DNA from: Saprospiraceae bacterium
Lineage (GTDB): Bacteria; Bacteroidota; Bacteroidia; Chitinophagales; Saprospiraceae
Reading direction: 5' to 3'
NCBI GenBank assembly: GCA_044347755.1
Contig: JBIKUE010000009.1
Location: forward strand, 1,933 to 65,932
DNA length: 64,000 nt
The notes under the pieces: generated by a model
What the model was told of the DNA's origin: nothing
Seen by the model: the letters and a program-made list of their open reading frames with translations, nothing else
Database searches by the model: none
Position numbers and translations under genes: made by a program
Shown: piece by piece, positions 5,820-64,000 of the stretch
Position numbering within the stretch: the stretch's first letter is position 1
Layout: each line of letters begins with the position of its first letter

Positions 5820-7312
5820 ATCCCATAACTCCCCACCGCTTCCATAAAGGCGCCGGATTTGATTTTAGTTTCGCGGAGTTCGTTTTCCGGCACGGATTCA
5901 TAGAGAAGGGTGGCGCCAGCGGAGAAAGAAAGCAGTCCATCTCGCACGTGGGCTGTTCGGATGGTGATGGCGGTATTCACATCCCCATTGAATAATAACC
6001 AGCCAATGCTGCCGCCGTAATACCCACGCGTATGTTGTTCAATCTCTTCAATGTACTGCATAGCGGCAATTTTGGGGGCGCCGGTGAGTGTGCCGGCATT
6101 CAGGCTGGCAATCAGCGCATCAAACCCTGAATAACGCGCCTGGAGCGTACCGCTCAATTGCGCCACAGTATGCGTTACGTGCGAATATTTCTCTACAATA
6201 CGGTAGTGTTCAATATCAATGCCCGGTTGGCAGATGCGCGCCAGGTCGTTGCGCCCAAGATCAATGAGCATATCCAGTTCCGAGTTCTCTTTGGGATCGT
6301 TGAGCAACTGCATCATCAGGCGATGATCTTCCATAGGATCCTGCGAGCGCCTGATAGAACCTGAAATGGGGCGTAAAGTAGCCCGTCCGTTCTCATAACG
6401 CAACATCAGCTCCGGACTGGCTCCTAGCAGGGTTTCATTCCCAAAATCAAAATAAAAAAGGTACGGAGAGGGGTTAATAGCCTTATAGCGGGCATACAAG
6501 GGCAGCAAATCGCCACTTACCGGAGCGGTGAGTTTCCGGCTGAGTACGATTTCCAAAAGTTCGCCTTCATGGCATAACTGAATGCCTCGTTGCACCTGCC
6601 TGCGAAATGTTTCATCATCCGGCGTAGCCACAAATTTCCCTATCTGCAGCGCCTCATCTGCGCCTCCCTGGGAAGGCACTGCGGGCGCTGCATGACACGG
6701 GTCTGTGTTTGATTTGGATAAAAACGCCTTGAGGTCCTGCTCAGCTGCCGGTTCATCGGCACGCGTGATGTACACCGTCAAATCAAGCGTTAAATGATTG
6801 AATAGCAGGATATTATCGAAAAGAAATAAATGAAAATCCGGTTCCGGACATGGCTTGGAATACGGCAAATCCTCAAACTGATACACAAACTGATATGCCA
6901 GCGCTCCGTACAGACCCATGAAGTTTTTGTCGGACATTTTGAAATGCGCCAACATGCTGCGCAATGGCTGTACAATGTTTTGTCGCTCCAGACGATCATC
7001 CTCCGCTCCGTGGAATGGAAGTTTTGGAATGTGCAACAACAGCCGGCCCTCCCGCTCACTTTCCACAAAAAGGGCAAATGTTTTTTTCAAAAAATCATAA
7101 AACACTTCTCCCCTGGCATCCAGCAAACGAATATCCAGGTGATCGTCTTTGCCGATCAATTCCAGTGTAGGCTCAAAACCTATAATCGAAAGCCTGCTGG
7201 ACTTGTCTACGGTAGAAGCTGACTCAAACAGGCAGGTAGGACCATTCCCTTTCAGTTGGCGGTACAACGAAAGGGCGTCGGCATATGGAAGTCGGGCGGT
7301 TGCAGTGTGCAT
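5816..7312 (-). CDS. chorismate-binding enzyme, anthranilate/aminodeoxychorismate synthase component I family
   Basis: ORF 5816..7393 trimmed to the ATG at comp. 7312 (MHTATARLPY...). Family motifs LFESAS, GTLTGAPK and RGYYGGSIGW...NTAITIRTA are present. No glutamine amidotransferase partner is adjacent, so TrpE vs PabB is unresolved. Confidence 0.85.
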   Translation of the reverse strand: MHTATARLPYADALSLYRQLKGNGPTCLFESASTVDKSSRLSIIGFEPTLELIGKDDHLDIRLLDARGEVFYDFLKKTFALFVESEREGRLLLHIPKLPFHGAEDDRLERQNIVQPLRSMLAHFKMSDKNFMGLYGALAYQFVYQFEDLPYSKPCPEPDFHLFLFDNILLFNHLTLDLTVYITRADEPAAEQDLKAFLSKSNTDPCHAAPAVPSQGGADEALQIGKFVATPDDETFRRQVQRGIQLCHEGELLEIVLSRKLTAPVSGDLLPLYARYKAINPSPYLFYFDFGNETLLGASPELMLRYENGRATLRPISGSIRRSQDPMEDHRLMMQLLNDPKENSELDMLIDLGRNDLARICQPGIDIEHYRIVEKYSHVTHTVAQLSGTLQARYSGFDALIASLNAGTLTGAPKIAAMQYIEEIEQHTRGYYGGSIGWLLFNGDVNTAITIRTAHVRDGLLSFSAGATLLYESVPENELRETKIKSGAFMEAVGSYGI

Positions 7313-15091: not shown

Positions 15092-15265
15092 GAATTTCCG
15101 ATTTACAACTTCCGATTTCCGATTTCCGAATGGGATTTAGGATTTGCGATTGGGGTAGCAAAGGTATGGTATTTTGCTCGAAACCGGTGGAAATCCCCAT
15201 TCGGAAATCCCCATTCGAAAATCCAATTCGGAAATCGGAAATCGGAAATTGTAAATCGGAAATTC
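15092..15265. repeat. intergenic 40-nt inverted repeat built from the word tccgattt
   Basis: gaatttccgatttacaacttccgatttccgatttccgaat (about 15092-15131) pairs with attcggaaatcggaaatcggaaattgtaaatcggaaattc (about 15226-15265). It is near-perfect and fills the gap between the glmM stop and the DinB start. Confidence 0.85.
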
Positions 15266-16978: not shown

Positions 16979-17890
16979 CTATTCTATCACAATTCTTTTC
17001 TCTCTGGCGAGTGTAAAGATCCCAAGGCCGTCTTTCAGGTTGTTGAATACAGAAATAGGCTCCACCAGAAAATTCTCCTCTGAATTCAGTTTTTCCAGAT
17101 ACGATCGCGACCACTTGTAGTAATCTTCCGTGATATTCCTGACCTGAATCAGATATGGATTGGAATTAGCATATACCTGCGCCTGGAACTTATAGGTTTT
17201 GCCCTCAAAAAATTGATCGCTGAATAAAGCACCGCCTTGAATTCCATTTAGCACTGAAGGATCTGAAAAGTCTTCCGGATACAAGTTATAGGAATCAAAA
17301 AAAATAGTATCCGGCTCGCCGGTAACCGGGTCTTCTCCGATGTTAAATAGCAGGGTAAAAATCTTCACTTCATAATAGTTGCGTACACCAGGCGCATCCT
17401 GAATGTACACATCTATCAAATCATACACATCTCCAAAAGGCCCGGATATGGCCTCCCGTTTCACTTTTGCTGAATCCAGTTGGAAATCGCCCGGCACTAC
17501 CTGGGTAGCTTCCACTAAAGGAAAATCTGGATGCGTGGCACGCACCGTGTACGTCTGTCCAATCTGGAATGGTTCCGGTAACGTACCGCTCAGCAGAAAA
17601 CTACTGTCGGTGCTTACGGGCTGTAGCGCAAGCCAGGGCTGGCCGTTTTTCAACAACTCCACAGAGCCGCCATATACCAAATACTGGTTCTGACTTGGTA
17701 CATATTCCAAAATGCCAAAATTTCGTGTCAAAATCACTTCTGCTACCGTATCCTGATCAGATAAGTTCAGGTGAAAAGAAAGTTGTTTTTCATAAGGAGG
17801 TGGATCAATTTCCACGGTTTGACTAAAGAAGCTTTCGCAGGATGTTAGTGCGATGGAGCTCAGGCAAAGTATGATGAGGATATTTTTCAT
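16979..17890 (-). CDS. DUF4249-like lipoprotein, the usual partner of a CarboxypepD_reg TonB-dependent receptor
   Basis: ORF 16979..17992 trimmed to the ATG at comp. 17890 (MKNILIILCLSSIALTSC lipobox). It lies immediately downstream of the TonB-dependent receptor gene. The family call rests on context, size and by-eye similarity only. Confidence 0.65.
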   Translation of the reverse strand: MKNILIILCLSSIALTSCESFFSQTVEIDPPPYEKQLSFHLNLSDQDTVAEVILTRNFGILEYVPSQNQYLVYGGSVELLKNGQPWLALQPVSTDSSFLLSGTLPEPFQIGQTYTVRATHPDFPLVEATQVVPGDFQLDSAKVKREAISGPFGDVYDLIDVYIQDAPGVRNYYEVKIFTLLFNIGEDPVTGEPDTIFFDSYNLYPEDFSDPSVLNGIQGGALFSDQFFEGKTYKFQAQVYANSNPYLIQVRNITEDYYKWSRSYLEKLNSEENFLVEPISVFNNLKDGLGIFTLAREKRIVIE

Positions 17891-17999
17891 GTGTGTGTTG
17901 GACGGTTGACGGTTAACGGTGGACGACCTACGGTAGCGAATTGGCTCTTTGGTTCCTGGACTAAAAGAAAATCCCAGGGGTGCCGCTACCATCCGCGGT

Positions 18000-20821: not shown

Positions 20822-20855
20822 GCGGGGTTTCAAAGCCCACGCTCTGAAACCCCGC
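20822..20855 (-). terminator. stem-loop followed by a T-run after the toxin-immunity operon (copy A)
   Basis: On the minus strand the sequence reads gcggggtttca-loop-tgaaaccccgc followed by ttttcgg. It lies 12 nt after the stop at 20867. Confidence 0.6.
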
Positions 20856-20866
20856 ATGACAATCCC

Positions 20867-21592
20867 TTAGTTATTATAAGCCGCTGCAGCCTCCTGCATT
20901 TTGGCTTTTTTCTCTTCAGGCGTTAATTCTCCAAGCTCCTCTGTTGGCGTAAACCTTATACCAACTAAACCCTCCTTTTCGATGGCATCTTTTAGCCGCT
21001 CTGAAACATAAAAGCCGGATGGCATAAAAATGAGTCGAAACATGTCGGTGCCTTCAGCTGCCTTGGAAATCTTGAGGACTCTGACATACAGGTTTTCTTT
21101 TTTGAAGAAAAGAGCATTTTTTAAGGATCTGAATTCCTCGTAGCTACTGAATTTCAAGCCCATTTTAATTACCTGGACAGCAAAATCAGTAGTATGCATC
21201 ACCTCAGTGTGTTCCCAGTCTACAAACTCGGCTGCACTGTTTTTGGTAAAATAGAGCAGAAAGTATGCCCGCTCTTCTTCTGCTTGTCTCACTGTCACCG
21301 GAAAGGCTTGATGATCAGCCAATTTGAATTTTGAAAGTAGGAAATAGAACCGACTACTTATGAGCAGGAACCCACCACCTCCTGGAGTAAAAGAGAACAA
21401 ATCTATCCATCTGGCTTCCTTTTCTAACAAAAGCACCGGAAACTTTTTGTTCGGATCAAGCTTCCCCTCCAGAGGAATGGATTGAAACGGGTGACCTTCT
21501 CCGGTTTCAGGGTTATGTACAAATTTTCGAACCTGCCCATCGATTCCAATTTCTTTCAAGTCCAGGGAAAACGTGATTTTATAAAAGTTCAT
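20867..21592 (-). CDS. orphan immunity-like protein, Imm11/DUF1629-like; paralogue of 25193..25921
   Basis: 241 aa, clearly homologous to the ORF that directly follows the AHH toxin in copy B. The C-terminal pattern DMFRLIFMPSGFYVSERLKDAIEKEGLVGIRF resembles Imm11. It is preceded by a remnant of the AHH toxin 3' end. Confidence 0.6.
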   Translation of the reverse strand: MNFYKITFSLDLKEIGIDGQVRKFVHNPETGEGHPFQSIPLEGKLDPNKKFPVLLLEKEARWIDLFSFTPGGGGFLLISSRFYFLLSKFKLADHQAFPVTVRQAEEERAYFLLYFTKNSAAEFVDWEHTEVMHTTDFAVQVIKMGLKFSSYEEFRSLKNALFFKKENLYVRVLKISKAAEGTDMFRLIFMPSGFYVSERLKDAIEKEGLVGIRFTPTEELGELTPEEKKAKMQEAAAAYNN

Positions 21593-21596
21593 GGCA

Positions 21597-21686
21597 TTAG
21601 AAATTCAAATCGTTGATTTTTGTGGTCGGGTTTTGATCAATCAAATTGCCCAGCTGGTTTTGAAAATCACGCAATCGCTGACTTGC
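21597..21686 (-). pseudogene. remnant of the 3' end of an AHH-type toxin gene (last 30 codons plus stop)
   Basis: The reverse complement translates to ASQRLRDFQNQLGNLIDQNPTTKINDLNF*. This is identical in protein to residues 578-607 of the copy-B toxin, with a few synonymous differences. Homology ends abruptly at 21686. Confidence 0.75.
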
Positions 21687-22398: not shown

Positions 22399-24239
22399 CA
22401 GAATCGCATTTTAAATTCGAAAGAACCTTTTTTAATGGCAATGGTGGGTTCGCCAGATGAGGTAGATTCAAGGTAGAACCTCATAGTGTAGTTGTTTCCT
22501 CCAAGATTGAATTCTGCAGTTATCTCATTTCCGTTGTTCCCAGAACTAATGTTATCAGGATCAATCTCAAAAGCTTCTACCAGGTCATCCCAAACATCAA
22601 GCGGCCCAAGCCCGTTAACCTTTGCCCCATTTCCAGTCCACTCAATCTTGGCGTAAAGATCATCAATTTTATTTCTTAAAACCTGATAGACCCTGTATGC
22701 AACATCATCGCCAAGCGTATATACTTTCTTCATTACATCATAAAACTTCATCAGGCTCGTTGCCTTTTTACCCAAACTGACTCCAAATGAAGCCACTTTC
22801 GCTATCGGAACAAAGGTGCCTGCTTCATCCAGTGCAATTTCTGCAGCAGTCCATATTGCGCCAAGGTAATCTCCGCTTTTTAACTGGTCAATTGCTGCTG
22901 GGCCAAGCGTGATAATTGTACCACCCGGTATAATGTCTATTAAGGCATCCTTTAACGCTAGTTCAAGCTGCTCAATGATAATATCCCAAACAGGGTTACT
23001 GATTGAATTGCTCTGAGCGTCTTGAAAAAACTGTTGAACTTCAACTGATCCAGAAGAAAGCATTTGGATATAACTTACCACAACTGCTGCCGCTAAGTTG
23101 GCATCATGCTGGTTAGCATTGTGGCTCTGCAGGAACGATAAACACTCTCCAATTCGACCTGAATTACTTACCAACCAATTTAACTGCGCAGCATTAAATT
23201 GGCAGTCATTTATCAGTTGTACCAGCAATTCTGCAGCGTCTTTGGATGCTGCATCCCCTCCATTAAATGTTATGAAGGACCCAATTTCGTCAAATAAAGC
23301 CTGATCGTTTAGCAGCAGTGTTTTTTCGGCGGCAGTAAGATCAAACCAGTCATCTACGATCACCTCTTTGGTACATTGAGACAGGCCGCTGTTAAACGCA
23401 TCGTACCATTCGGGTCCGTCATAAGAGGAAAAACCACAAGTGTTTTTGATCTGCTCCATCAAATCGATCGGATGCTGCTCCAGGAAGAATTTATCCTTGA
23501 GCAAATGGGTCAAAAGGATTGCGAACGAGCCGTTGCATTTACCATTAATATAGGCTTTTAGCTTGTCGGCGGTTGCAATGTCCTTAGGACTGGCATCCCA
23601 ATATTTGATGATCTCCTCCTGCTGTGGATGGCCATATTGTGTGAACAGGCACATGGATTCTGCCCCGTTCAAACCAGCCTCATTGACAAGCATACAAAAA
23701 TCCAGATCTGTCTGACTATAGCCGGGTGGAATCTCTCCAATCGAGAGAATGTATTCATTGATGGCAGCACAGGTTGCCATCTGGCCGGAAAACTGCTGGT
23801 CAAAAATGCCTCCTCCGCCAGGTTGTTGGTAACCTTCCGGCGTAGTCCATCCCAATTGCCCTCCCGGGAAAAAATAGGATCCGGAATATGATTCGGAGCT
23901 GCCATTGATGGCATCCCAGATATTGCCGGCAACGGTACCGAAGTCTTTCCAAAATTCATTCCACCAACCCCAATCAATATTAATATTGTTGCTTCCAAAT
24001 TGAGGACACCTTACCTTCGGCTTGCCATCTCTGTCGGATGACGTTGAATCAGTTTGCGCAAATCCGGAGGAGATATCCCAAAACGGAATTTTACCGTCTC
24101 CTTTCAGAGCAATGTAGCCGTTAACCACCTTCACAAACTTTTCAATGGTATCTTCCTGGCTTACCAGCATCATAGTACCATTGAACTGACCGGTAGCATC
24201 CAAAGAGGAAAGAACGTGGACAGAGAGTCGGCTGCCCAT
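22398..24239 (-). CDS. polymorphic toxin A: shared 343-aa N-terminal region plus unique 270-aa C-terminus of unknown activity
   Basis: 613 aa. Residues 1-343 equal those of copy B except for 2 substitutions. Sequences diverge completely after ...AELLVQLI (nt ~23210). The C-terminal part has a PT-TG-like linker (DIIPGGTIITLGPAAIDQLKSGDYLGAIW) and then ~125 aa that I cannot assign. Confidence 0.7.
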   Translation of the reverse strand: MGSRLSVHVLSSLDATGQFNGTMMLVSQEDTIEKFVKVVNGYIALKGDGKIPFWDISSGFAQTDSTSSDRDGKPKVRCPQFGSNNINIDWGWWNEFWKDFGTVAGNIWDAINGSSESYSGSYFFPGGQLGWTTPEGYQQPGGGGIFDQQFSGQMATCAAINEYILSIGEIPPGYSQTDLDFCMLVNEAGLNGAESMCLFTQYGHPQQEEIIKYWDASPKDIATADKLKAYINGKCNGSFAILLTHLLKDKFFLEQHPIDLMEQIKNTCGFSSYDGPEWYDAFNSGLSQCTKEVIVDDWFDLTAAEKTLLLNDQALFDEIGSFITFNGGDAASKDAAELLVQLINDCQFNAAQLNWLVSNSGRIGECLSFLQSHNANQHDANLAAAVVVSYIQMLSSGSVEVQQFFQDAQSNSISNPVWDIIIEQLELALKDALIDIIPGGTIITLGPAAIDQLKSGDYLGAIWTAAEIALDEAGTFVPIAKVASFGVSLGKKATSLMKFYDVMKKVYTLGDDVAYRVYQVLRNKIDDLYAKIEWTGNGAKVNGLGPLDVWDDLVEAFEIDPDNISSGNNGNEITAEFNLGGNNYTMRFYLESTSSGEPTIAIKKGSFEFKMRF

Positions 24240-24613
24240 AAAACCAGTTTACTTTGAATTTGTCCGGCCGGGTCTTTATAAAAAGCCAGGCTACTCCCAA
24301 ATCGGGTGCCCGGAAGTGAGGCAGGAGTATCAACAGGCGTGATAAGTACCGGAAAGCCAGAAGGTGTTACAATATAGGATTCGTTCCAGAGGGGCGTTAC
24401 ACATAGTGGCAGCTTGTCTTCTGACCGGTCGAGAGCCCCTCCTCCATTTGAAAACCGGCCTTTTACTTCTTCCAATGAAATGGAGCGGTTGACCAGTTCA
24501 TTGGCTGGCTCACTCAACGGAATTTCTTGTAGTTCCTTTCTACATCCGCCTGCAAAAACTAAAGTAAGTAATACAATAACAGGCCACGCTGTGGCAAATT
24601 TGAATTGAATCAT
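24170..24613 (-). CDS. small lipoprotein ORF overlapping the toxin A start by 70 nt (possibly the original N-terminus of the toxin)
   Basis: 147 aa. MIQFKFATAWPVIVLLTLVFAGGC is a signal peptide plus lipobox. It ends 70 nt inside the toxin ORF in another frame. The frame junction is at a T4 run (ctggttttatggg). Confidence 0.6.
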   Translation of the reverse strand: MIQFKFATAWPVIVLLTLVFAGGCRKELQEIPLSEPANELVNRSISLEEVKGRFSNGGGALDRSEDKLPLCVTPLWNESYIVTPSGFPVLITPVDTPASLPGTRFGSSLAFYKDPAGQIQSKLVLWAADSLSTFFPLWMLPVSSMVL

Positions 24614-24782
24614 CTTGAAGGTTGTGTTTTGACGGTCTTCAGTTGTCCTTGCCTCGCGCGCCGGTGGGGATTTCTGATTACGTCAGGTTAAAAATTACTG
24701 TTGTTATTAATTGGATGCACAAATATGCGTGGCTCCCTCTCTAAAAAAATATAACACTTTTTGGCACTTATTCCCCACCAAC

Positions 24783-25021: not shown

Positions 25022-25192
25022 ATATCAAATCACGGTTTGGCCTTAAAAGTGGCCAAGCTTTTTACGGCAGAGTAAGAGGCTAAAAGTGATAATCCATTTG
25101 TGTTATGTGAAGGAAACTACACTTAATTACCCCTAAACCTTAAAGTTTTTACCTTTCAGAGTCTACTCTCTGAAACCCCGCATGACAATCCC

Positions 25193-25921
25193 TTAGTTAT
25201 TATAAGCCGCTGCAGCTTCCTGCATTTTGGCTTTTTTCTCTTCCGGTGTTAATTCTCCAAGCTCCTCTGTTGGCGTAAACCTTATACCAACTAAACCTTC
25301 CTTTTGGATGGCATCTTTTAGCCGCTCTGAAACATAAAAGCCGGATGGCATAAAAACAAACTTGAACATGTCGGTACCTTCAGCTGCCTTGGCGATCTTG
25401 AGGACTCTAACATACAGGTTTTCTTTATTGTGTAGCAATTCCATTTTTCTGGCCAAAAACTCCTCATAGCTACTGAATTTCAAGCCCATTTTAATTACCT
25501 GGGCAGCAAAATCAGTAGTATGCATCACCTCAGTGTGTTCCCAATCTACAAACTCGGCTGCACAGTTTTTGGTAAAATAGAGCAGAAAGTATGCCCGCTC
25601 TTCCTCTCCTTGTCTCACTGTCACCGGGAAAGCTTGATAATCATCCAAATTGAATTGGCTCAACAGCATATAAAAACGACTGCTTATTAGAAGCAGACGC
25701 CCTGATCCGGGAACTTGTTCAAGCAGATCCGTCCATTTTGCAGCCTTTTCTAACAAAAGCACCGGAAACTTTTTGTTCGGATCAAGCTTACCCTCCAGAG
25801 GAATGGATTGAAAGGGGTGACCTTCTCTGGTTTCAGGGCTTTGTACAAATTTCTGAACTTGGTCATAAATTCCAATGACCTTCGGATCCAAAGAAAGTGC
25901 AAGTCTGAAAAACTTCATCAT
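25193..25921 (-). CDS. putative immunity protein for the AHH toxin, Imm11/DUF1629-like
   Basis: 242 aa. The start lies 1 nt after the toxin B stop. The C-terminal pattern DMFKFVFMPSGFYVSERLKDAIQKEGLVGIRF resembles Imm11, which is the usual neighbour of AHH/HNH toxins. Confidence 0.65.
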   Translation of the reverse strand: MMKFFRLALSLDPKVIGIYDQVQKFVQSPETREGHPFQSIPLEGKLDPNKKFPVLLLEKAAKWTDLLEQVPGSGRLLLISSRFYMLLSQFNLDDYQAFPVTVRQGEEERAYFLLYFTKNCAAEFVDWEHTEVMHTTDFAAQVIKMGLKFSSYEEFLARKMELLHNKENLYVRVLKIAKAAEGTDMFKFVFMPSGFYVSERLKDAIQKEGLVGIRFTPTEELGELTPEEKKAKMQEAAAAYNN

Positions 25922-25922
25922 A

Positions 25923-27746
25923 TTAGAAATTCAAATCGTTGATTTTTGTGGTGGGGTTTTGATCAATCAAATTTCCCAGCTGGTTTTGAAAATCACGCAA
26001 TCGCTGACTTGCAACATCTGGAGGAATATTATTAAGCCCTCCATATTGAGTTTCTAATTGACTCAAAATCTCATTCAAATTTATTCGGACTTTTTCATTA
26101 TATTGCGGATGATTTCCATGAACACCATCCTGTTGATCGAAACGGAACCGTTTTAACTCTCTTCCATTTTTTGGGTGGTTCATGTGAAAAGGGGTGTTAT
26201 TAGCCTTCGCCGCAAGTTGTACCAACTCGTGATCTTGTCTTGACCAAGGAATCAAATGATGCGCATCATTCGCTGCATCGGTAATTTCCATTACCTCTCT
26301 CAAACCTGTTCTTTCACCAAAGGTAATAAGTCCTCCATCATTTGTCAACTTCAATAAATGCTGAACGCCTGTAGATGCCTTTTTTACTGCGACATGTGCA
26401 TATTTACCGCCTGTAGATATCCATCCAGCGATTGGAAGGGTTGCTGCAAAGCTCAGGGATGCATTCAGCGGATCACCCTCGATTATGAATAGTACACCAT
26501 TGGTCAGATCACATGGCTCGCCAACTACAGGCAGAAGCCCACAAATGTCAAGAGCAATATGTAATTCATACATTACCTCTTTTACTGCCTGGAGAAAAAT
26601 GGTGTCCATATCCCAAGATGGATGTAAAATCTTCAACCATGCCATCTTCATAATCAACTGGACAAATACACCCGGAGGAAAATCCTCCTCCTTGAACGAT
26701 GGGTATTTACCTTGTGCAATTAGCTGTACCAGCAACTCCGCAGCGTCTTTGGATGCTGCATCCCCTCCATTAGAAGTTATGAAGGACCCAATTTTGTCAA
26801 ATAAAGCCTGATCATTCAGCAGTAGTGTTTTTTCGGCGGCAGTAAGATCAAACCAGTCATCTACGATCACCTCTTTGGTACACTGAGACAGACCACTGTT
26901 AAAAGCATCGTACCATTCGGGTCCGTCATAAGAGGAAAAGCCACAAGTGTTTTTGATCTGCTCCATCAAATCGATCGGATGCTGCTCCAGGAAGAATTTA
27001 TCCTTGAGCAAATGGGTCAAAAGGATTGCGAACGAGCCGTTGCATTTACCATTAATATAGGCTTTTAGCTTGTCGGCGGTTGCAATGTCCTTAGGACTGG
27101 CATCCCAATATTTGATGATCTCCTCCTGCTGTGGATGGCCATATTGTGTGAACAGGCACATGGATTCTGCCCCGTTCAAACCAGCCTCATTGACAAGCAT
27201 ACAAAAATCCAGATCTGTCTGACTATAGCCGGGTGGAATCTCTCCAATCGAGAGAATGTATTCATTGATGGCAGCACAGGTTGCCATCTGGCCGGAAAAC
27301 TGCTGGTCAAAAATGCCTCCTCCGCCAGGTTGTTGGTAACCTTCCGGCGTAGTCCATCCCAATTGCCCTCCCGGGAAAAAATAGGATCCGGAATATGATT
27401 CGGAGCTGCCATTGATGGCATCCCAGATATTGCCGGCAACGGTACCGAAGTCTTTCCAAAATTCATTCCACCAACCCCAATCAATATTAATATTGTTGCT
27501 TCCAAATTGAGGACACCTTACCTTCGGCTTGCCATCTCTGTCGGATGACGTTGAATCAGTTTGCGCAAATCCGGAGGAGATATCCCAAAACGGAATTTTA
27601 CCGTCTCCTTTCAGAGCAATGTAGCCGTTAACCACCTTCACAAACTTTTCAATGGTATCTTCCTGGCTTACCAGCATCATAGTACCATTGAACTGACCGG
27701 TAGCATCCAAAGAGGAAAGAACGTGGACAGAGAGTCGGCTGCCCAT
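25923..27746 (-). CDS. polymorphic toxin B: shared 343-aa N-terminal region plus C-terminal AHH-type HNH/EndoVII nuclease domain
   Basis: 607 aa. The C-terminus reads DAHHLIPWSRQDHELVQLAAKANNTPFHMNHPKNGRELKRF...DGVHGNHPQYNEKV, which fits the AHH family pattern (AHHxIP ... N..NG..L ... HxGxHxxYN). It is preceded by a PT-TG-like linker LLPVVGEPCDLTNGVLFIIEGDPLNA. Confidence 0.75.
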   Translation of the reverse strand: MGSRLSVHVLSSLDATGQFNGTMMLVSQEDTIEKFVKVVNGYIALKGDGKIPFWDISSGFAQTDSTSSDRDGKPKVRCPQFGSNNINIDWGWWNEFWKDFGTVAGNIWDAINGSSESYSGSYFFPGGQLGWTTPEGYQQPGGGGIFDQQFSGQMATCAAINEYILSIGEIPPGYSQTDLDFCMLVNEAGLNGAESMCLFTQYGHPQQEEIIKYWDASPKDIATADKLKAYINGKCNGSFAILLTHLLKDKFFLEQHPIDLMEQIKNTCGFSSYDGPEWYDAFNSGLSQCTKEVIVDDWFDLTAAEKTLLLNDQALFDKIGSFITSNGGDAASKDAAELLVQLIAQGKYPSFKEEDFPPGVFVQLIMKMAWLKILHPSWDMDTIFLQAVKEVMYELHIALDICGLLPVVGEPCDLTNGVLFIIEGDPLNASLSFAATLPIAGWISTGGKYAHVAVKKASTGVQHLLKLTNDGGLITFGERTGLREVMEITDAANDAHHLIPWSRQDHELVQLAAKANNTPFHMNHPKNGRELKRFRFDQQDGVHGNHPQYNEKVRINLNEILSQLETQYGGLNNIPPDVASQRLRDFQNQLGNLIDQNPTTKINDLNF

Positions 27747-28120
27747 AAAACCAGTTTACTTTGAATTTGTCCGGCCGGGTCTTTATAAAAAGCCAGGCTA
27801 CTCCCAAATCGGGTGCCCGGAAGTGAGGCAGGAGTATCAACAGGCGTGATAAGTACCGGAAAGCCAGAAGGTGTTACAATATAGGATTCGTTCCAGAGGG
27901 GCGTTACACATAGTGGCAGCTTGTCTTCTGACCGGTCGAGAGCCCCTCCTCCATTTGAAAACCGGCCTTTTACTTCTTCCAATGAAATGGAGCGGTTGAC
28001 CAGTTCATTGGCTGGCTCACTCAACGGAATTTCCTGTAGTTCCTTTCTACATCCGCCTGCAAAAACTAAAGTGAGTAATGCAATAACAGGCCACGCTGTG
28101 GCAATTTTGAATTGAATCAT
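27677..28120 (-). CDS. small lipoprotein ORF overlapping the toxin B start by 70 nt (paralogue of 24170..24613)
   Basis: 147 aa. It differs from the copy-A ORF at 2 residues (F6I, V14A) and has the same LVFAGGC lipobox and the same overlap geometry. Confidence 0.6.
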   Translation of the reverse strand: MIQFKIATAWPVIALLTLVFAGGCRKELQEIPLSEPANELVNRSISLEEVKGRFSNGGGALDRSEDKLPLCVTPLWNESYIVTPSGFPVLITPVDTPASLPGTRFGSSLAFYKDPAGQIQSKLVLWAADSLSTFFPLWMLPVSSMVL

Positions 28121-28243
28121 CTTGAAGTTTGTGTTTTGACGGTTTTCAGTTGTCCTTGCCTCGCGCGCCGGTGGGGATTTCCGTTGCCGTCGGGTTATTA
28201 AAATTGATAATTAGAACAAATATAGAGGCTCGGATCAAATTTG

Positions 28244-28819: not shown

Positions 28820-30148
28820 TTACAACGCCCGGTTCGGATCAAACTGCTCCAGATAATCTGCTATCCGGCGCAGGAAAGAGCCGCCCAGGGAGCCGTCTAC
28901 CACACGGTGGTCGTAGGAAAGCGAGAGGAACATCATCTGGCGCACGGCAATTACATCGCCATATTCGGTTTCGAGTACGGCCGGTTTTTTGCGGATGGCG
29001 CCCGTGGCCAGGATGGCTACCTGCGGCTGGTTGATGATAGGCGTGCCCATCACATTGCCGAAGGTGCCCACATTGGTGATGGTGAACGTGCCGCCCTGAA
29101 TTTCGTCGGGCTTGAGCTGGTTCTGACGGGCGCGGTTGGCCAGGTCGTTCACCTGTTTGGTGAGTCCGGCCAGGTTGAGGTAATCGGCATTGCGAATCAC
29201 CGGTACAATCAGGTTGCCGCTGGGTAGCGCCGCCGCCATACCGATGTTGATGTCTTTCCGGACGATCAGTTTGGTACCATCCACAGAAATATTGATCATC
29301 GGGAAATCGCGGATAGCTCGGGCCACGGCCTCCACGAAAATGGGTGTGAACGTGATGTTCTCCCCGTATTGCTTTTTAAAGGAGTCCTTGATGCGGTTGC
29401 GCCAGTTCACCAGGTTGGTTACATCGGCCTCCACGAAGGACGTCACGTGCGGGCTGGTGTGTTTGCTCATCACCATGTGGTCGGCGATGAGTTTGCGCAT
29501 ACGATCCATTTCTACGATCTCCACATTTCCGGAAATGGAAACCGGCGGTGGTGCGGGTATGGACGGCGCGGGTGTTGGGGCGGGTGCGGAAGGCGCACTG
29601 GGCACTGCAGGGCTACTGGTCGCAACAGCGCCGGCTTTGCCCCGATTGGCCACATAAGCCAGGATATCTTTTTTGGTCACACGACCGTCTTGGCCGGTAC
29701 CCGGAATGGCATCCAGTTCTTGCTGGGAAACCCCTTCTTCTTTGGCGATGGTGCGCACCAGCGGAGAGTAAAAGCGGTCGGAGCTGGATTGTACGGCTGC
29801 CGGGGCTGCTGCCTGAGGTGCGTAAGGCACCTGGGCGGCTTGTACAGAAGCGGTATCCGGTGTGGTGGAGGCGGAAGCGCTGCTACCGGCGGAAACTGCG
29901 GCGCCTGCTTCGGTTTCGATGATGGCAATGGCCTTATTGATGGCTACTACCTCATTTTCCTGAAACAGAATTTCAACAAGCGTCCCGGCAACCGGAGAAG
30001 GCACTTCGGAGTCAACCTTATCCGTGGCGATATCAAGAACGGGTTCATCCAGTTCAACAGAATCGCCTGGTTTTTTGCGCCATTTGAGGATGGTGGCCTC
30101 CATGATGCTCTCGCCCATCTTGGGCATCACAAGTTCTACGCGAGCCAT
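28820..30148 (-). CDS. 2-oxoacid dehydrogenase E2 component (dihydrolipoamide acyltransferase)
   Basis: 442 aa. Lipoyl-lysine context DIATDKVDSEVPSP, an Ala/Pro-rich linker, an E3-binding region, and the catalytic motif LSYDHRVVDGSLGGSFL. Confidence 0.9.
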   Translation of the reverse strand: MARVELVMPKMGESIMEATILKWRKKPGDSVELDEPVLDIATDKVDSEVPSPVAGTLVEILFQENEVVAINKAIAIIETEAGAAVSAGSSASASTTPDTASVQAAQVPYAPQAAAPAAVQSSSDRFYSPLVRTIAKEEGVSQQELDAIPGTGQDGRVTKKDILAYVANRGKAGAVATSSPAVPSAPSAPAPTPAPSIPAPPPVSISGNVEIVEMDRMRKLIADHMVMSKHTSPHVTSFVEADVTNLVNWRNRIKDSFKKQYGENITFTPIFVEAVARAIRDFPMINISVDGTKLIVRKDINIGMAAALPSGNLIVPVIRNADYLNLAGLTKQVNDLANRARQNQLKPDEIQGGTFTITNVGTFGNVMGTPIINQPQVAILATGAIRKKPAVLETEYGDVIAVRQMMFLSLSYDHRVVDGSLGGSFLRRIADYLEQFDPNRAL

Positions 30149-30322
30149 GTGTGATTGTGTGATTGTGTGAATGAGGGATTTTAAGCCCCTCTAAGTTTGG
30201 TTAAAGCGCCGCAAAGGTAGTAATTGTTGGACTTTAAAGTGAGCTTGCAGATATTCCATTGTTGGTTATCATTTATTGTGTGCAATTTTGCAACCTTGTT
30301 TATCAATCATTTTTATTCGATT

Positions 30323-31447: not shown

Positions 31448-31720
31448 TGTGGTTAATGTGGGGAATGTGGTTAATGTGGCAGAATGGGGCTGTCTGGCAA
31501 GTCATATTTTTAGTTTTACCGCAGAGAGCTTGATAACCAATATATACCCCTCCGCTTCTCTCCGCCTCTGCGGTAAAAAACACTTCTTAGAAACCCTTGT
31601 AATCGCAACTTAATCCCATTGAGTCTTGGAATAGCCACATACAAAAGCCAAGCGCAACGCCCACATTAACCACATTAACCACATTACGCTCATTCCCCAC
31701 ATTCTCTCATTACCCACATT
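31448..31720. repeat. intergenic element with aatgtgg word repeats on the left and ccacatt word repeats on the right
   Basis: The left arm tgtggttaatgtggggaatgtggttaatgtgg starts right after the stop at 31447. The right arm ccacattaaccacattaaccacatta...ccccacatt...acccacatt ends 8 nt before the next start. An internal hairpin taccgcagag..ctctgcggta is followed by an A-run. Confidence 0.75.
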
Positions 31721-35443: not shown

Positions 35444-35550
35444 CCACATTAACCACATTAACCACATTAACCACATTAACCACATTCCCCACATTAATCA
35501 CATTCCCCACATTAATCACATTCCCCACATTAACCACATTCCCCACATTC
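35444..35550. repeat. tandem array of ~9-10-nt ccacatt words abutting the bcp start codon
   Basis: ccacattaa x4 is followed by alternating ccacattcc / ccacattaat units, ending 4 nt before ATG 35555. All units run in one orientation, with no inverted partner nearby. Confidence 0.85.
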
Positions 35551-37241: not shown

Positions 37242-37447
37242 TGTTTGAGTGTTCGGGTGTTTGAGTTGGCGTTCGGCTTGGAATTACCACCAGACTCTGG
37301 GTATTGGTATTGTTCTAAATACCTCTGAAGTATTTAAAAAATAAGGGATGCTAAACAACAAAATACTCAAACACCTTACTGCGGCAGCATAAGACACCTA
37401 GCCGAACGCCAACTCAAACACCCAAACACTCAAACACCCAAACACTC
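37241..37447. repeat. intergenic 38-nt inverted repeat built from gtgtttgag words, ~120-nt spacer
   Basis: gtgtttgagtgttcgggtgtttgagttggcgttcggct (37241-37278) pairs with agccgaacgccaactcaaacacccaaacactcaaacac (37400-37437) with 1 mismatch, plus an extra ccaaacactc. It spans the whole gap from stop to next ATG. Confidence 0.85.
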
Positions 37448-43235: not shown

Positions 43236-43346
43236 GTGTTTTAGTTGACGTTCGGTTGGGTATGGCCGGGAGCTAATCGATTTTAAGGTTGCTGTTGCCT
43301 CTGAAGCACTAAAACACCAAAACACTAAAACACTAAAACACCAACC
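43236..43346. repeat. intergenic element with gtgttttag / ctaaaacac word repeats
   Basis: The left end gtgttttagttgacgttcgg starts right after the stop. The right end is cactaaaacaccaaaacactaaaacactaaaacaccaacc. Confidence 0.7.
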
Positions 43347-51050: not shown

Positions 51051-51091
51051 CCCCACACCGTCCCATCGTTCATCGTTCATCGTTTAATTAC

Positions 51092-61425: not shown

Positions 61426-61537
61426 CGTTGGACAATGGACTGTTAGACAATGGACATTGGACTTGGGCTCTGGGTAATATGTAATTACAGCTACAACGAG
61501 CGCAAGTCCAATGTCTAATATCCAACAGTCCAACGTC
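61424..61537. repeat. intergenic word-repeat palindrome with conserved core (ggacaatggac words)
   Basis: gacgttggacaatggactgttagacaatggacattggacttgggctctgggtaatatgtaattacagctacaacgagcgcaagtccaatgtctaatatccaacagtccaacgtc. It starts inside the rlmN stop codon. Confidence 0.8.
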
Positions 61538-61634
61538 CATATCATACGTGGTTTTGAACGAGGATGCTTTTCAATAAATTTGAAATCAAGTACTTGCATC
61601 ACGAAAATCATCAAAATCACGCTAATCACAGTAT

Positions 61635-62020: not shown

Positions 62021-62749
62021 ATGGAAAAAGAAAATTTGGAGCCCAAGAATGGCTCAACCAGAAAACAAAAACAATGGAGTAAAAAACGCGGCGAAAATGC
62101 CTGGACCATGTTCAAGGTTATGGCCGAGTTTGTGGATGGCTTTGAAGTCCTGAACGAAGTGGGCCCCTGCGTATCCATTTTCGGATCGGCCCGCACTAAA
62201 CCGGGTACGGTGTATTACGAACTAGCGGTAAAAACAGCTTCGAGGCTGGTAGAAGAAGGCTATGGCGTGATTACCGGTGGCGGTCCGGGCATCATGGAGG
62301 CTGGCAACAAAGGCGCCTGGATGAAAGGCGGAACATCTATTGGACTCAACATCAACCTGCCTTTTGAGCAGCACCATAATCCGTTCATTGCGCCGGATCA
62401 CAACTTGAAATACCGCTATTTCTTTGTTCGGAAAGTGATGTTTGTAAAATATGCCCAGGCATTCGTAGTAATGCCCGGCGGTTTTGGCACGTTGGATGAA
62501 CTGTTTGAGGTGTTAACGCTCGTTCAAACCAATAAAATTTCGCGCATGCCCATCGTACTCATGGGCGTTGAATTCTGGGAAGGATTGAAAAACTGGATTG
62601 TGGAAATCATGCTTAAGCGTCACCATAATATCCACGCAGAAGATCTGGATCTTTTCCTGGTGACAGATGATGTAGAAGAAGCTGTTCAGTACATCAACAA
62701 GTTCTACGCTCAGGATTCCAGCTTGCTGGAGCCGAATTTTGAGTTGTAG
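62021..62749 (+). CDS. LOG-family protein (TIGR00730; nucleotide 5'-monophosphate nucleosidase / cytokinin riboside phosphoribohydrolase-like)
   Basis: 242 aa. The motifs GGGPGIMEA and PGGFGTLDELFE are present. Confidence 0.85.
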   Translation: MEKENLEPKNGSTRKQKQWSKKRGENAWTMFKVMAEFVDGFEVLNEVGPCVSIFGSARTKPGTVYYELAVKTASRLVEEGYGVITGGGPGIMEAGNKGAWMKGGTSIGLNINLPFEQHHNPFIAPDHNLKYRYFFVRKVMFVKYAQAFVVMPGGFGTLDELFEVLTLVQTNKISRMPIVLMGVEFWEGLKNWIVEIMLKRHHNIHAEDLDLFLVTDDVEEAVQYINKFYAQDSSLLEPNFEL

Positions 62750-62860
62750 ACGATGGACGGTTGGACAATGGACGTTGGACTTGCGCTCAGGGTAGATGAT
62801 GTCTTTTTACTTCATCGAGCGCAAGTCCTACGTCTAACAGTCTAATCCCAACCAACAGTC
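62749..62860. repeat. intergenic word-repeat palindrome with conserved core (closest relative of 61424-61537 and 49177-49283)
   Basis: gacgatggacggttggacaatggacgttggacttgcgctcagggtagatgatgtctttttacttcatcgagcgcaagtcctacgtctaacagtctaatcccaaccaacagtc. Confidence 0.8.
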
Positions 62861-63068
62861 TGAATTTGAAATGCACAGGGATGAGGCTGCTGGAAAGCAA
62901 TGATTTCAAGGTTTATATCTTGAATTTACAGTGTTAAGCACTACGGTTGTTAAAATTGCCTAAATTGGTCAATCCTTTAGAATTAACAAATCTCCATTCT
63001 TAACCAACTATATCTTTATGAGTTCTTCGTAAAAAATAGCGCATTTTTAACCAATCTATTATAACATT

Positions 63069-64000
63069 ATGATGATCTTACAAAGATTTTCACGCATCAC
63101 GCATCACGCATCACGCATCACGCATCACGCTTTCTGCTTTTTTAATCCTCCTAAATATAGGTTTATCGAAAGCACAAAGTATTGAATGTGGAACGCCAGA
63201 TATCCCCCTTGCTCAAATGGAGCAGATTTTGGCAAATCTTAATCCGCAGGTAAGTGGTTCAGGTTCTTCACCCATCAGAATTCCGGTTTATTATTTTTTA
63301 TTAAGGCAAACAAACGGCAGCACTTCACATGATTCTTATGATATTGAACAAAGCATCAATACTGTAAACGATCATTTTGGTGGACTGTTTGAATTCTACG
63401 TTTGTGGACAGGCGTTAATTGACAATGACCAATTTCATGTAATGAATTTGAATGCATCTTCCTCGGATGTTATTGATTTGCACGGAATTGTAAATCTTAA
63501 CTTTCCAGTTTCACAAGAGTGTGTTAAAGTGTTTTTTTGTGATCTAATTGAGTGGGGAGGTGGAAATCCCGGAGGTTTTGCACATGAAAGATTTAATTAC
63601 GGTACTAATGGCGCTGTATATTGCGTTAGTCCGATAATCTCCGTCCTCTCACACGAACTTGGTCACTATTTCGGATTGCCACATACCTTCCAAGATCCAC
63701 CAACTCAATATGTACATGATTTTGCCAATCCGATTTTTATCAATGGCGTAAAATATACCTGCAAACAAACTGGCGATGGTTTTTGTGATACCCCCGCAGA
63801 TTTGGAAGAGTGTTACGCGAACACGGCCTGCACTCAGATTACTTGCCCCAGCGCTGATCCATTGGGAGTTGCATATACTCCGGACCAAACCAATTTGATG
63901 AGTTATTACGCAGGTTGTGCAATCAGATTTTCATTGGAGCAGCAAGAACGAATGAGAACGATCTATGAATTACATCCTGACTATGAAGAACTAAGGATCA
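63069..64000 (+). CDS. secreted M43 (pappalysin/cytophagalysin-type) zinc metalloprotease, 3' end outside the window; start codon currently out of frame with the body
   Basis: An open frame runs from 63076 to the window end and encodes ...LSAFLILLNIGLSKAQS (signal core), HELGHYFGLPHTF, GDGFCDTPAD and NLMSYY (M43 motifs). The only upstream ATGs (63069, 63072) are in a different frame, which stops at 63183-63185. A 7-nt tandem repeat lies between them. Confidence 0.7.
63091..63130. repeat. heptanucleotide tandem repeat (cacgcat) x5.7
   Basis: cacgcat units start at 63091, 63098, 63105, 63112 and 63119, plus a partial cacgc at 63126-63130. The array lies inside the 5' end of the M43 protease gene. 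Confidence 0.95.

What the first reader, a model, noticed from the sequence alone, without database searches (positions are those of the whole stretch)
63069..63185. Heptanucleotide repeat between the ATG and signal-peptide core of an M43 protease: candidate phase-variation switch, currently OFF
The long open frame encoding the M43 protease (HELGHYFGLPHTF, GDGFCDTPAD) extends upstream to 63076 and includes a good signal-peptide core and cleavage site (LSAFLILLNIGLSKAQS). It contains no ATG, GTG or TTG before the mature part. The only start codons (ATG ATG at 63069-63074, giving MMILQRFSR...) are in another frame, which terminates at 63183-63185. Between them lies (cacgcat)x5.7 (63091-63130). 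Because 7 is not a multiple of 3, losing one unit or gaining two would yield MMILQRFSRITHHASRITLSAFLILLNIGLSKAQS-IECGTP..., a complete preprotein. This is the classic geometry of slipped-strand phase variation of a secreted or surface factor.
Basis: partly seen in the sequence, partly recalled or inferred. Interest (0 to 1): 0.65.

Follow-up and report, generated by a model that had tools for sequence, protein, structure and literature searches.

The report
Seven-base repeat switch in protease gene
A perfect 7-base repeat sits between the start codon and the secretion signal of a secreted metalloprotease gene, putting the gene out of frame; the repeat number differs between otherwise identical strains, so it is most likely a slippage-driven on/off switch of a well-known kind, here in an environmental (non-pathogen) Bacteroidota lineage.

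Summary
(TCACGCA)x5.86 at 63090-63130 separates ATGATG (63069) from the signal-peptide core and M43 protease frame; removing one unit or adding two units restores a complete preprotein. It is not an assembly error, because 12 independent metagenome assemblies of the same clone carry 5.86 units.

The tract is hypermutable. An 80%-identical ortholog has 2.86 units in one assembly and 3.86 in three others, with 0 SNPs over ~4 kb. The gene is not decaying: dN/dS is ~0.11 at dS ~1, and substitutions after the repeat are mostly synonymous in the signal-peptide frame only.

Other clades of the family carry different heptamers at the same spot (CTCGGTG, TCACCGC, probably TTCCACA). Two family members read their array in frame.

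Caveats:
- No in-frame allele was found in this clade (2.86, 3.86 and 5.86 are all out of frame).
- One sister group bypasses the switch with an in-frame TTG and only tolerates 3-unit changes.
- The genome is full of similar arrays in 5' UTRs.

Best explanation (~0.6): a slipped-strand translational phase-variation locus, currently OFF, analogous to E. coli neuO and Neisseria opa. It is a new member of a known kind, of moderate interest.

The parts
62771..62834 (+). Imperfect hairpin (18-nt arms, 94% complementary) built on the tandem array that follows the stop of the upstream LOG-family gene. It is the likely 3' boundary of the upstream transcription unit.
   Evidence: Inverted repeat I1; TRF array 62749-62780. 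No canonical T-tract terminator was found.
62952..63068 (+). Conserved upstream region (promoter and 5' UTR) that travels with the gene. It includes the near-palindrome TTGCCTAAATTGGTCAA and a promoter-like TTGCCT-N16-TAGAAT at 62956-62983.
   Evidence: About 76-81% identity over the 140 nt before the ATG in window/L001/L011, although the upstream genes differ in each lineage. TGCCTAAAT..GGCA is also present in the L008 group. Promoter-like match.
63069..63089 (+). Start codons ATG ATG and a 7-codon leader, MMILQRF (frame 0).
   Evidence: The leader DNA is identical in L001 and has one change in L011. It resembles the in-frame N-terminus of repeat-free homolog P0001 (MITLFR), the L026 leader MQNRF, and the L008 leader once one T is removed (MMLNLRF).
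63090..63130 (+). Heptanucleotide tract (TCACGCA)x5.86. It encodes the cyclic peptide SRITHHA in every frame.
   Evidence: TRF, 100% matches; 0/100 shuffles; no inverted partner. Orthologs carry 2.86 or 3.86 units.
63069..63185 (+). Out-of-frame product of the present allele, 38 codons (MMILQRFSRITHHASRITHHAFCFFNPPKYRFIESTKY), ending at TGA 63183-63185.
   Evidence: It has no hydrophobic core (maximum 10-mer hydropathy 0.66). Its length and sequence are not conserved in L001/L011.
63130..63180 (+). Signal-peptide hydrophobic core and cleavage region in frame 1: LSAFLILLNIGLSKAQS.
   Evidence: Translation; hydropathy 2.73. Substitutions among window/L001/L011 are mostly synonymous in this frame only (4/7, 6/10, 3/4, against 0-2 in the other frames).
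63138..63143 (+). T6 run, a second possible one-base route back into frame. Loss of one T gives MMILQRFSRITHHASRITHHAFCF-LILLNIGLSKAQS.
   Evidence: Simulated. The run is broken (TTTCTT) in L011, so it is not a conserved element.
63181..64000 (+). Mature M43 metallopeptidase (frame 1), which runs off the window end. The full gene in a contig of the same clone gives a 797-aa preprotein when in frame, with a weak T9SS C-terminal sorting domain.
   Evidence: PF05572 30.4 bits > 23. TIGR04183 21.7 bits against a cut-off of 23, at residues 719-790. HELGHYFGLPH at 63652-63684. dN/dS 0.11.
63217..63219 (+). Internal in-frame ATG (MEQILANL...). Gene callers use it for all out-of-frame alleles, and the resulting product lacks a signal peptide.
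   Evidence: Called genes. Proteins P0018, P0031, P0032 and P0046 all start MEQIL.

Best explanation
The tract is a slipped-strand (simple-sequence-repeat) translational switch in the signal-peptide-coding 5' end of a secreted M43 metalloprotease gene.

How it works: translation starts at ATGATG (63069). The heptamer tract lies in the n-region of the signal peptide and encodes the same harmless peptide (SRITHHA) in every frame. Because 7 is not a multiple of 3, each gain or loss of a unit during replication moves the start codon in or out of phase with the signal-peptide core and the protease.

The window allele (5.86 units) is out of phase. It yields a 38-residue peptide and, at most, a signal-less protein from ATG 63217 that cannot be exported. 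Alleles with 1.86, 4.86 or 7.86 units would make the full preprotein.

Shown here:
- the frame geometry;
- unit-number polymorphism between otherwise identical genomes;
- long-term retention of a perfect tract;
- purifying selection on the gene and on the signal-peptide frame;
- heptamer tracts at this site in other branches of the gene family, in frame in some members and out of frame in others.

Inferred, not shown:
- reversible switching within a population;
- that ATGATG is the only start;
- that switching is adaptive, for example if only a minority of cells produce a costly shared exoprotease.
For: 1. Geometry: -1 or +2 units gives an uninterrupted preprotein with 2-3 K/R residues in the n-region, a hydrophobic core and an AQS cleavage site.
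2. Hypermutability: L001/L012 (2.86 units) and L013-L015 (3.86 units, three SRA runs) differ by one unit and by 0 of ~3,970 other bases. The window clone has 5.86 units.
3. The tract is perfect in three lineages separated by dS ~0.3-1.1, and the gene body has dN/dS 0.11-0.12.
4. In the 53 nt after the tract, changes are mostly synonymous in the signal-peptide frame only, so that frame is translated.
5. Homologs have a signal peptide directly before ECGTPD. The protein has a weak T9SS sorting-domain match; if it is T9SS cargo, it needs Sec export.
6. The leader is the family's ancestral N-terminus. Repeat-free P0001 reads ATG ATT ACG CTA TTT CGC... in frame (MITLFR...), and L026 has MQNRF.
7. 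The same site carries other heptamers elsewhere in the family. CTCGGTG has 1 or 4 copies in the L008 group. TCACCGC x4.7 is out of frame in L026. P0048 has HRSPLTAHRSPLTAHR in frame, and P0053 has FHIPHSTFHI, which equals (TTCCACA)n in frame.
8. 7 of the ~25 closest full-length family representatives are annotated without a signal peptide. This is the annotation signature of out-of-frame 5' ends, as described for Gardnerella nanH3.
9. Known precedents have the same design: neuO has a heptamer in its 5' coding sequence and 65.6% of genomes are OFF; opa has CTCTT in its leader-peptide region.
Against: - No in-frame allele of this clade exists in the public collections searched. Exact look-ups of 1.86, 4.86 and 7.86-unit products on three backbones failed, and no cluster member starts MMILQ. 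Only about three independent allelic states were sampled, so under neutrality P(no ON) is ~0.3.
- The window clone shows the same 5.86 count in 12 assemblies, so switching is not fast enough, or not selected enough, to change the consensus.
- In the L008 group, only frame-preserving 3-unit variants (1 or 4 copies) occur. They are spread over two SNP haplogroups, with an in-frame TTG upstream of the array. There the gene is probably ON through TTG and the repeat does not act as a switch from ATGATG.
- 2.86 and 5.86 also differ by exactly 3 units.
- The genome carries many C/A-rich arrays in 5' UTRs ending 6-9 nt before start codons. The tract could therefore be a by-product of a genome-wide repeat-generating process.
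- P0048's in-frame Met may be a chance upstream ATG rather than the family's canonical start.
Confidence: 0.6

Rival explanations
1. The repeat does not gate expression. Like the many other arrays in this genome, it would act as an unstructured C/A-rich leader, and the protease would be translated from a non-AUG codon in the signal-peptide frame. One candidate is ATC 63124-63126, giving M-T-LSAFLILLNIGLSKAQS; another is ATC 63103. Both stay in register with the signal peptide whatever the unit number. ATGATG would then open a short out-of-frame upstream ORF.
For: - All natural alleles are out of frame with ATGATG, yet the gene is under strong purifying selection.
- The L008 group uses an in-frame TTG next to its array with ATGATG out of frame, and its relative P0043 also starts MLGAL....
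Against: - There is no ATG/GTG/TTG in the signal-peptide frame before 63217.
- The 29 long ORFs of the window start with ATG (22), TTG (5) or GTG (2) as listed.
- The ATC 63124 product has no charged n-region.
- Ribosomes starting at the conserved ATGATG would run across the proposed start.
- The leader is homologous to the in-frame N-terminus of P0001 and L026.
- In the L008 group a one-base insertion after ATGATG explains why TTG took over.
Confidence: 0.15
2. Non-adaptive slippage damage. The genome is prone to heptamer expansion, a tract invaded the 5' end of this gene, and the gene is currently knocked out in each sampled lineage. There would be no selected switching function, and the gene would be on its way to loss or be rescued only occasionally.
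For: - Tandem arrays are pervasive: 67 TRF rows in 64 kb, covering almost every intergenic region.
- No ON allele was seen.
- Many family members are annotated without a signal peptide.
Against: - dN/dS is 0.11-0.12 over dS ~1 between lineages that all carry the tract.
- The signal-peptide frame shows the same purifying pattern.
- ORFs of 744-750 codons (from the internal ATG) are intact in every lineage.
- The tract has stayed perfect instead of decaying.
- Simultaneous recent inactivation in three or more lineages is unparsimonious unless it is reversible, and reversible inactivation is phase variation.
Confidence: 0.12
3. Programmed recoding. Translation starts at ATGATG and shifts +1 at the Phe codon followed by T (TTT_T, codon 7, 63087-63090) into the signal-peptide frame. 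Alleles with 2.86 or 5.86 units (and 1 or 4 copies in the L008 group) would then be the functional state, and 3.86 would be OFF.
For: - ATGATG + 12 nt + TTTT has the same spacing in the window clade and the L008 group despite unrelated intervening sequence.
- A +1 offset occurs in five of seven allelic states (5.86, 2.86 in two lineages, L008 1 and 4 copies), and unit differences of exactly 3 occur in both clades.
Against: - There is no stop or rare codon after the slip site. TCA occurs at 6.5 per 1000 codons and TTT at 31 per 1000.
- The offset is +2 in the 3.86-unit allele and in L026.
- L026 has TTT AAT at that place.
- No Rfam element or structure signal was found.
- The L008 pattern is explained more simply by a one-base insertion plus a TTG start.
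Confidence: 0.07
4. Assembly or sequencing artefact: the true count is in frame and the reference miscounts the repeat.
For: Short tandem repeats can be miscounted by assemblers.
Against: - 13 contigs from 12 independent assemblies give 5.86 units.
- The tract (41 nt) is shorter than a read.
- Related lineages are also out of frame, with other counts.
Confidence: 0.01

Closest known systems
E. coli K1 neuO (CUS-3 prophage O-acetyltransferase) heptanucleotide contingency locus
   Same: [quoted passage not shown] Full-length translation happens only at every third unit number, and slippage is the mechanism. About two thirds of sequenced genomes (65.6% of 64) are OFF (PMC13001214).
   Different: neuO carries 3-53 units, against 2.86-5.86 here. 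It is a cytoplasmic enzyme of a pathogen's prophage, and its repeats become part of the mature enzyme. Here the tract lies in a cleaved signal peptide of a secreted protease in an environmental Bacteroidota lineage. ON alleles and switching rates are measured for neuO and not here.
Neisseria opa genes (CTCTT pentamer)
   Same: A repeat whose unit is not a multiple of 3 lies inside the leader/signal-peptide coding sequence, between the ATG and the mature protein. The reading frame is restored or disrupted by unit number (PMC3745409; bioRxiv 10.1101/2020.09.16.300947).
   Different: The unit is a pentamer. The gene family has multiple copies, encodes an outer-membrane adhesin of an obligate human pathogen, and switches at a measured rate of ~1e-3 per generation.
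Gardnerella nanH3 sialidase poly-C tract
   Same: It is an extracellular hydrolase with its slippage tract next to the signal-peptide coding region. Out-of-frame genomes are annotated without the signal peptide, exactly as happens here (MEQIL... calls).
   Different: The tract is a homopolymer, the organism is Gram-positive, and within-colony length heterogeneity was shown experimentally.
Heptamer direct repeats immediately upstream of start codons (TAACTGA arrays of Beggiatoaceae, Cyanobacteria and a few Bacteroidetes; long simple-sequence repeats of Mrazek et al.)
   Same: The window genome shows this phenomenon widely, with period 7-11 arrays in forward orientation ending 6-9 nt before ATG (PMC4679880). 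Strain differences in 7-nt increments are also reported there.
   Different: Those arrays are untranslated and are followed by a start codon. The M43 tract lies after the start codon and is followed directly by the signal-peptide core, with no canonical start in that frame for 87 nt.
Haemophilus influenzae lic1 (CAAT)n with start codons in two frames (from my own knowledge, not checked here)
   Same: Alternative start codons in different frames upstream of the repeat give graded expression. The L008 group has ATGATG in one frame and TTG in another, both upstream of its heptamer tract.
   Different: The unit is a tetranucleotide and the gene is an LPS-decoration gene of a pathogen. The window clade has only the one start frame.

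Membership tests
SSR-mediated translational phase-variation (contingency) locus | A tandem repeat whose unit length is not a multiple of 3 lies inside the reading frame, between the start codon and the functional part of the protein. | tested here: met
   (TCACGCA)x5.86 lies between ATGATG 63069 and the signal-peptide core at 63130.
SSR-mediated translational phase-variation (contingency) locus | Unit number is polymorphic between closely related strains, in excess of point substitutions. | tested here: met
   2.86 against 3.86 units with 0 mismatches in ~3,970 nt. The window clone has 5.86 units. However, the count is invariant among 12 assemblies of that clone.
SSR-mediated translational phase-variation (contingency) locus | Both in-frame (ON) and out-of-frame (OFF) tract lengths occur in nature. 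| tested here: inconclusive
   In this clade only OFF lengths were found, in two different wrong frames. In-frame arrays occur in more distant family members P0048 and P0053. The sample is about three independent states, and part of the look-ups were biased towards the OFF product.
SSR-mediated translational phase-variation (contingency) locus | High-frequency reversible switching within a clonal population, with matching change in protein expression. | not testable with these tools
   No raw reads, cultures or proteomes were available.
SSR-mediated translational phase-variation (contingency) locus | The gene is otherwise intact and under purifying selection (not a pseudogene). | tested here: met
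   dN/dS 0.11-0.12. The signal-peptide frame carries the synonymous substitutions.
Peptidase family M43 (cytophagalysin/pappalysin-type metzincin) | Match to the family profile above the curated threshold, plus the zinc-binding HExxHxxGxxH motif. | tested here: met
   PF05572 scores 30.4 bits against a cut-off of 23. HELGHYFGLPH lies at 63652-63684. The profile match covers only 65-150 of 152 profile positions.
Type IX secretion system cargo (type A C-terminal sorting domain) | A C-terminal sorting domain at the extreme C-terminus, plus an N-terminal Sec signal peptide. | tested here: inconclusive
   TIGR04183 scores 21.7 bits against a cut-off of 23, and PF18962 scores 17.5 against 27, at residues 719-790 of 797. 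Homologs carry PF18962 in precomputed annotation. The signal peptide is present only in frame 1.
Programmed +1 ribosomal frameshifting (prfB type) | A conserved slip site with a stop or slowly decoded codon in the A site, and a frame offset conserved among orthologs. | tested here: not met
   The next codon is TCA or TTT, which are not rare. The offset is +1 in some alleles and +2 in others.
5'-UTR heptamer direct-repeat arrays upstream of start codons | The array is untranslated, in forward orientation, and ends a few nt before a start codon of the downstream gene. | tested here: not met
   The array follows ATGATG, and there is no ATG/GTG/TTG in the downstream frame until 63217. The feature is met by at least seven other arrays in the window.

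The most novel reading that the evidence does not exclude
The out-of-frame arrangement could be the working state. On this reading, the protease is made from alleles that look OFF, through non-canonical decoding: near-cognate AUC initiation inside the repeat, or a +1 slip at UUU_U after codon 7. The heptamer tract would then tune expression rather than gate it. Three results keep this open: every sampled allele is out of frame with ATGATG, selection on the gene is strong, and two clades show frame-preserving 3-unit differences.
Probability: 0.15. Interest if true: 0.75.

Novelty: new member of a known kind. Interest (0 to 1): 0.5.

Why it matters
Repeat-driven contingency loci are known almost entirely from host-adapted pathogens, where they switch surface antigens. 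Here the same design sits in a free-living or bioreactor-associated Bacteroidota lineage (Chitinophagales/Saprospirales MAGs). It controls a secreted protease that may be type IX secretion cargo, and related heptamer tracts occur at the same site across a diverse branch of the gene family.

If confirmed, it would show that stochastic ON/OFF switching also governs extracellular enzymes ("public goods") in environmental communities. That would suggest only a minority of cells pay for protein degradation.

It would also mean that automated annotation systematically truncates such genes: they are called from an internal Met, without a signal peptide. The prediction is cheap to test with existing metagenomic reads.

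Tried and rejected
- **Assembly error:** rejected, because 12 independent assemblies give the same count.
- **Transcriptional or ribosomal slippage on the T6 run (63138-63143) as a conserved bypass:** rejected, because L011 has TTTCTT there and the substitutions upstream of the run already follow the signal-peptide frame.
- **Hairpin-forming array pair, like the arrays after stop codons:** rejected, no inverted partner.
- **Known RNA element:** nothing credible in Rfam. The only hit was a snoRNA at E = 0.083, below threshold.
- **Reassigned TGA:** rejected, TGA ends 9 of 29 ORFs.
- **Searches for in-frame alleles:**
  - Exact look-ups of 14 hypothetical in-frame products and one T5 variant on the window, L001 and L011 backbones, plus one T5 variant on L008, were all absent.
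  - The N-terminal profile search found only P0046, which is also called from MEQIL.
  - The word-index protein search proved insensitive. It missed P0031 and P0004, which exist, so its negatives carry little weight.
- **Metagenome scan with a degenerate ECGTPDIPL pattern:** four loci, of which only L008 was relevant.
- **Viral-contig scans:** empty.
- **The 38-aa out-of-frame ORF:** not on record as a called gene.
- **Look-up bias:** look-ups through the OFF product are biased against ON alleles. Only the look-up through the upstream gene was unbiased, and it displays only 4 of 23 places.
Full report
**1. Observation**

Tandem Repeats Finder reports a perfect period-7 array, (TCACGCA)x5.9, at 63090-63130. 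It is the highest-scoring period-7 array in the window. A 21-nt version has no match in 100 dinucleotide-preserving shuffles, and the unit occurs nowhere else in the window.

- ATG ATG at 63069-63074 opens a 38-codon ORF that stops at TGA 63183-63185.
- The frame encoding the M43 peptidase is open from 63076, just after TGA TGA that overlap ATGATG. It has no ATG, GTG or TTG until ATG 63217.
- Simulated alleles with one unit fewer or two units more read MMILQRFSRITHHASRIT(HHASRIT)LSAFLILLNIGLSKAQS-IECGTPD... without a stop to the window end. All other counts from -3 to +3 terminate early.

**2. The gene**

- The product matches Pfam Peptidase_M43 above the curated threshold (30.4 against 23 bits) and carries HELGHYFGLPH.
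- The full gene, recovered from a contig of the same clone, would encode a 797-residue preprotein when in frame. It has a weak type IX secretion sorting domain at the extreme C-terminus (TIGR04183, 21.7 against 23 bits).
- More distant homologs (P0001, P0003, P0006) have an ordinary signal peptide directly before the conserved ECGTPD motif. The frame-1 signal peptide is therefore the native N-terminus.
- The product called from ATG 63217 (MEQIL...) lacks any export signal.

**3. Not an artefact**

Looking up the upstream neighbour and the called product returned 13 contigs from 12 independent JGI/ENA assemblies, all with exactly 5.86 units. Four of them have no mismatch to the window over ~5 kb. 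This is one widespread clone with a stable consensus count.

**4. The tract is mutable and old**

- An ortholog at 80% amino-acid identity (L001, Chitinophagales MAG) has the identical leader ATGATGATCTTACAAAGATTT and the same unit, but 2.86 copies.
- The same 744-residue protein occurs in three Logan assemblies with 3.86 copies. Those contigs differ from L001 at none of ~3,970 other positions. Unit number therefore changes much faster than bases substitute.
- A third lineage (L011, Saprospirales MAG, 93% identical to L001) has 2.86 copies.
- The tract is perfect in all of them, although synonymous divergence between the window and L001 is ~1 per site.

**5. The gene is functional**

- dN/dS is 0.11-0.12 in all informative comparisons.
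- In the 53 nt between the tract and the mature protein, substitutions among the three lineages are mostly synonymous in the signal-peptide frame (4/7, 6/10, 3/4). They are almost all non-synonymous, or create a stop, in the other two frames.

That frame is therefore translated from a point at or before the end of the tract. This excludes a dead gene. It also excludes a bypass at the T6 run 63138-63143, which is in any case interrupted in L011.

**6. The family**

The one metagenome scan used a pattern for ECGTPDIPL, so it was blind to the repeat. It found L008, at 50% identity.

*L008 group.* The L008 cluster and five more contigs show a different heptamer, CTCGGTG, at the same place, in 1 or 4 copies.

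*L026.* This is the closest NCBI homolog P0004, at 46% identity. It has (TCACCGC)x4.7 after ATG CAA AAC CGA TTT AAT T, and it is out of frame by +2.

*Exhaustive search.* A search of 1.84 billion representatives gave the following.
- P0048 has the N-terminus ...KL-HRSPLTAHRSPLTAHR-FTLAFLF... This is the same type of array read in frame from a Met into the signal-peptide core.
- P0053 starts MK-FHIPHSTFHI-LLVFVFL..., which equals (TTCCACA)n in frame. This is inferred from the peptide.
- 7 of the ~25 closest full-length representatives are annotated without a signal peptide, and five more have only a very short one.

*Repeat-free homolog.* P0001 reads ATG ATT ACG CTA TTT CGC... in frame (MITLFR...), which resembles MMILQRF.

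A heptamer tract after codon ~7 of the signal peptide thus occurs in at least three, probably four, branches of this gene family, with unit turnover and with both in-frame and out-of-frame states.

**7. Complications**

(a) No in-frame allele of the TCACGCA clade was found.
- Exact look-ups of hypothetical 1.86, 4.86 and 7.86-unit products on three backbones failed.
- No cluster member starts MMILQ.
- Another lineage, P0046, is also called from MEQIL.
- With about three independent allelic states, the neutral chance of seeing no ON allele is ~0.3. For neuO, two thirds of genomes are OFF. This is therefore weak evidence against the switch.

(b) The L008 group behaves differently.
- ATGATG is out of frame in all six contigs.
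- An in-frame TTG lies just upstream of the array.
- The 1-copy and 4-copy alleles are mixed over two SNP haplogroups, and 2 or 3 copies never appear.
- Removing one T after ATGATG turns that leader into MMLNLRF-LLGAQ..., the homolog of MMILQRF.
- The simplest reading is that a one-base insertion disconnected ATGATG in that group, TTG took over as the start, and the array is now constrained to 3-unit changes. Relative P0043 also starts MLGAL.

(c) The genome is full of tandem arrays.
- Almost every intergenic region has them. Many are C/A-rich on the sense strand and end 6-9 nt before a real ATG.
- Others form inverted pairs after stop codons.
- Heptamer direct repeats just upstream of start codons have been described, for the single unit TAACTGA, in Beggiatoaceae, Cyanobacteria and a few Bacteroidetes (PMC4679880).
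- The M43 tract is the only array in the window that lies between a start codon and a signal-peptide core, and it has no inverted partner. Its origin is probably this same repeat-generating process.

**8. Mechanism**

The best-supported model (confidence ~0.6) is a slipped-strand translational switch.
- ATGATG is the start.
- The tract lies in the n-region of the signal peptide, where its product (SRITHHA in every frame, basic and non-acidic) is tolerated.
- Unit number sets the phase.
- The window allele is OFF and one step away from ON.

Rivals:
- Non-AUG initiation in or after the tract, with ATGATG as an upstream ORF (0.15).
- Non-adaptive slippage damage (0.12).
- A +1 recoding event at TTT_T after codon 7 (0.07). 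This would explain the predominant +1 offset and the 3-unit differences, but it lacks a stimulatory codon and fails in the 3.86 allele and in L026.
- Artefact (0.01).

**9. Comparison and novelty**

The design matches three known cases.
- E. coli neuO: a heptamer in the 5' coding sequence, ON at every third count.
- Neisseria opa: a pentamer in the leader-peptide region.
- Gardnerella nanH3: a tract next to the signal peptide of an extracellular hydrolase, annotated without a signal peptide when OFF.

What is new:
- the host, an environmental Chitinophagales/Saprospirales lineage;
- the cargo, a secreted M43 protease with a weak T9SS sorting-domain match;
- the family-wide recurrence with changing units.

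It is a new member of a known kind. Interest is moderate: the mechanism is textbook, the phylogenetic and ecological setting is unusual, and the absence of in-frame alleles despite strong purifying selection remains unexplained but is readily testable.

Noticed in passing
window 31660-31720, 35444-35549, 37415-37445, 43307-43341, 51064-51084, 30148-30170 (- strand), 17901-17925 (- strand): Many genes have C/A-rich tandem arrays (period 7-11; units such as CCACATTAA, CAAACACC, CACTAAAA, CATCGTT) on the sense strand that end 6-9 nt before the start codon. They resemble the heptamer direct repeats upstream of start codons described in Beggiatoaceae, Cyanobacteria and some Bacteroidetes, but here the units differ from gene to gene. 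They may be unstructured translation-initiation leaders in an organism without Shine-Dalgarno sequences.
   Followed up: partly
window 61427-61462 / 61506-61539; 15094-15129 / 15228-15263; 62749-62834; 5695-5831: Tandem arrays begin within a few bases of stop codons and are paired with an inverted copy of the same array. Together they form long imperfect hairpins made of repeats. These may be terminators or REP-like elements.
   Followed up: no
window 62952-62990 (TTGCCTAAATTGGTCAA...TAGAAT); L001 ~5797-5835; L008 reverse strand ~175-215: A near-palindromic motif TGCCTAAAT-N-GGxCA lies ~100-120 nt upstream of the ATG. It is conserved in all lineages of the M43 gene, including the 50%-identical L008 group, although the upstream neighbour gene differs in window, L001 and L011. 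It may be an operator or promoter that moves with the gene.
   Followed up: partly
L008 group: L027, L029, L030 compared with L008, L028, L031 (3' end of the M43 gene): Some alleles lack the stop after ...RGKLVKK and run on for 54 more codons (720/741/748 against 666/687/694 aa). The product then extends past the C-terminal sorting domain and overlaps the next gene. This is independent of the repeat copy number.
   Followed up: no
window 23212-24696 and 26719-28205 (also 20828-21686 and 25154-26012): Segmental duplication: two adjacent copies of a gene block, 98% identical over 1,487 nt and 86% over 867 nt. Each copy contains the same 12-nt repeat (23873 and 27380).
   Followed up: partly
L008 reverse strand 288-310 (and L027-L031): All six contigs of this group carry one extra T directly after ATGATG, relative to the reading that matches the family leader (MMLNLRF). 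The canonical start is therefore permanently out of frame, and an adjacent TTG appears to serve as the start.
   Followed up: yes
window 16979-17992 (- strand): The longest-ORF start at 17992 is spurious. The real start is the ATG at codon 35, which gives a lipoprotein-type signal peptide (MKNILIILCLSSIALTSC), with the GACGGTT-type array in its 5' UTR.
   Followed up: yes
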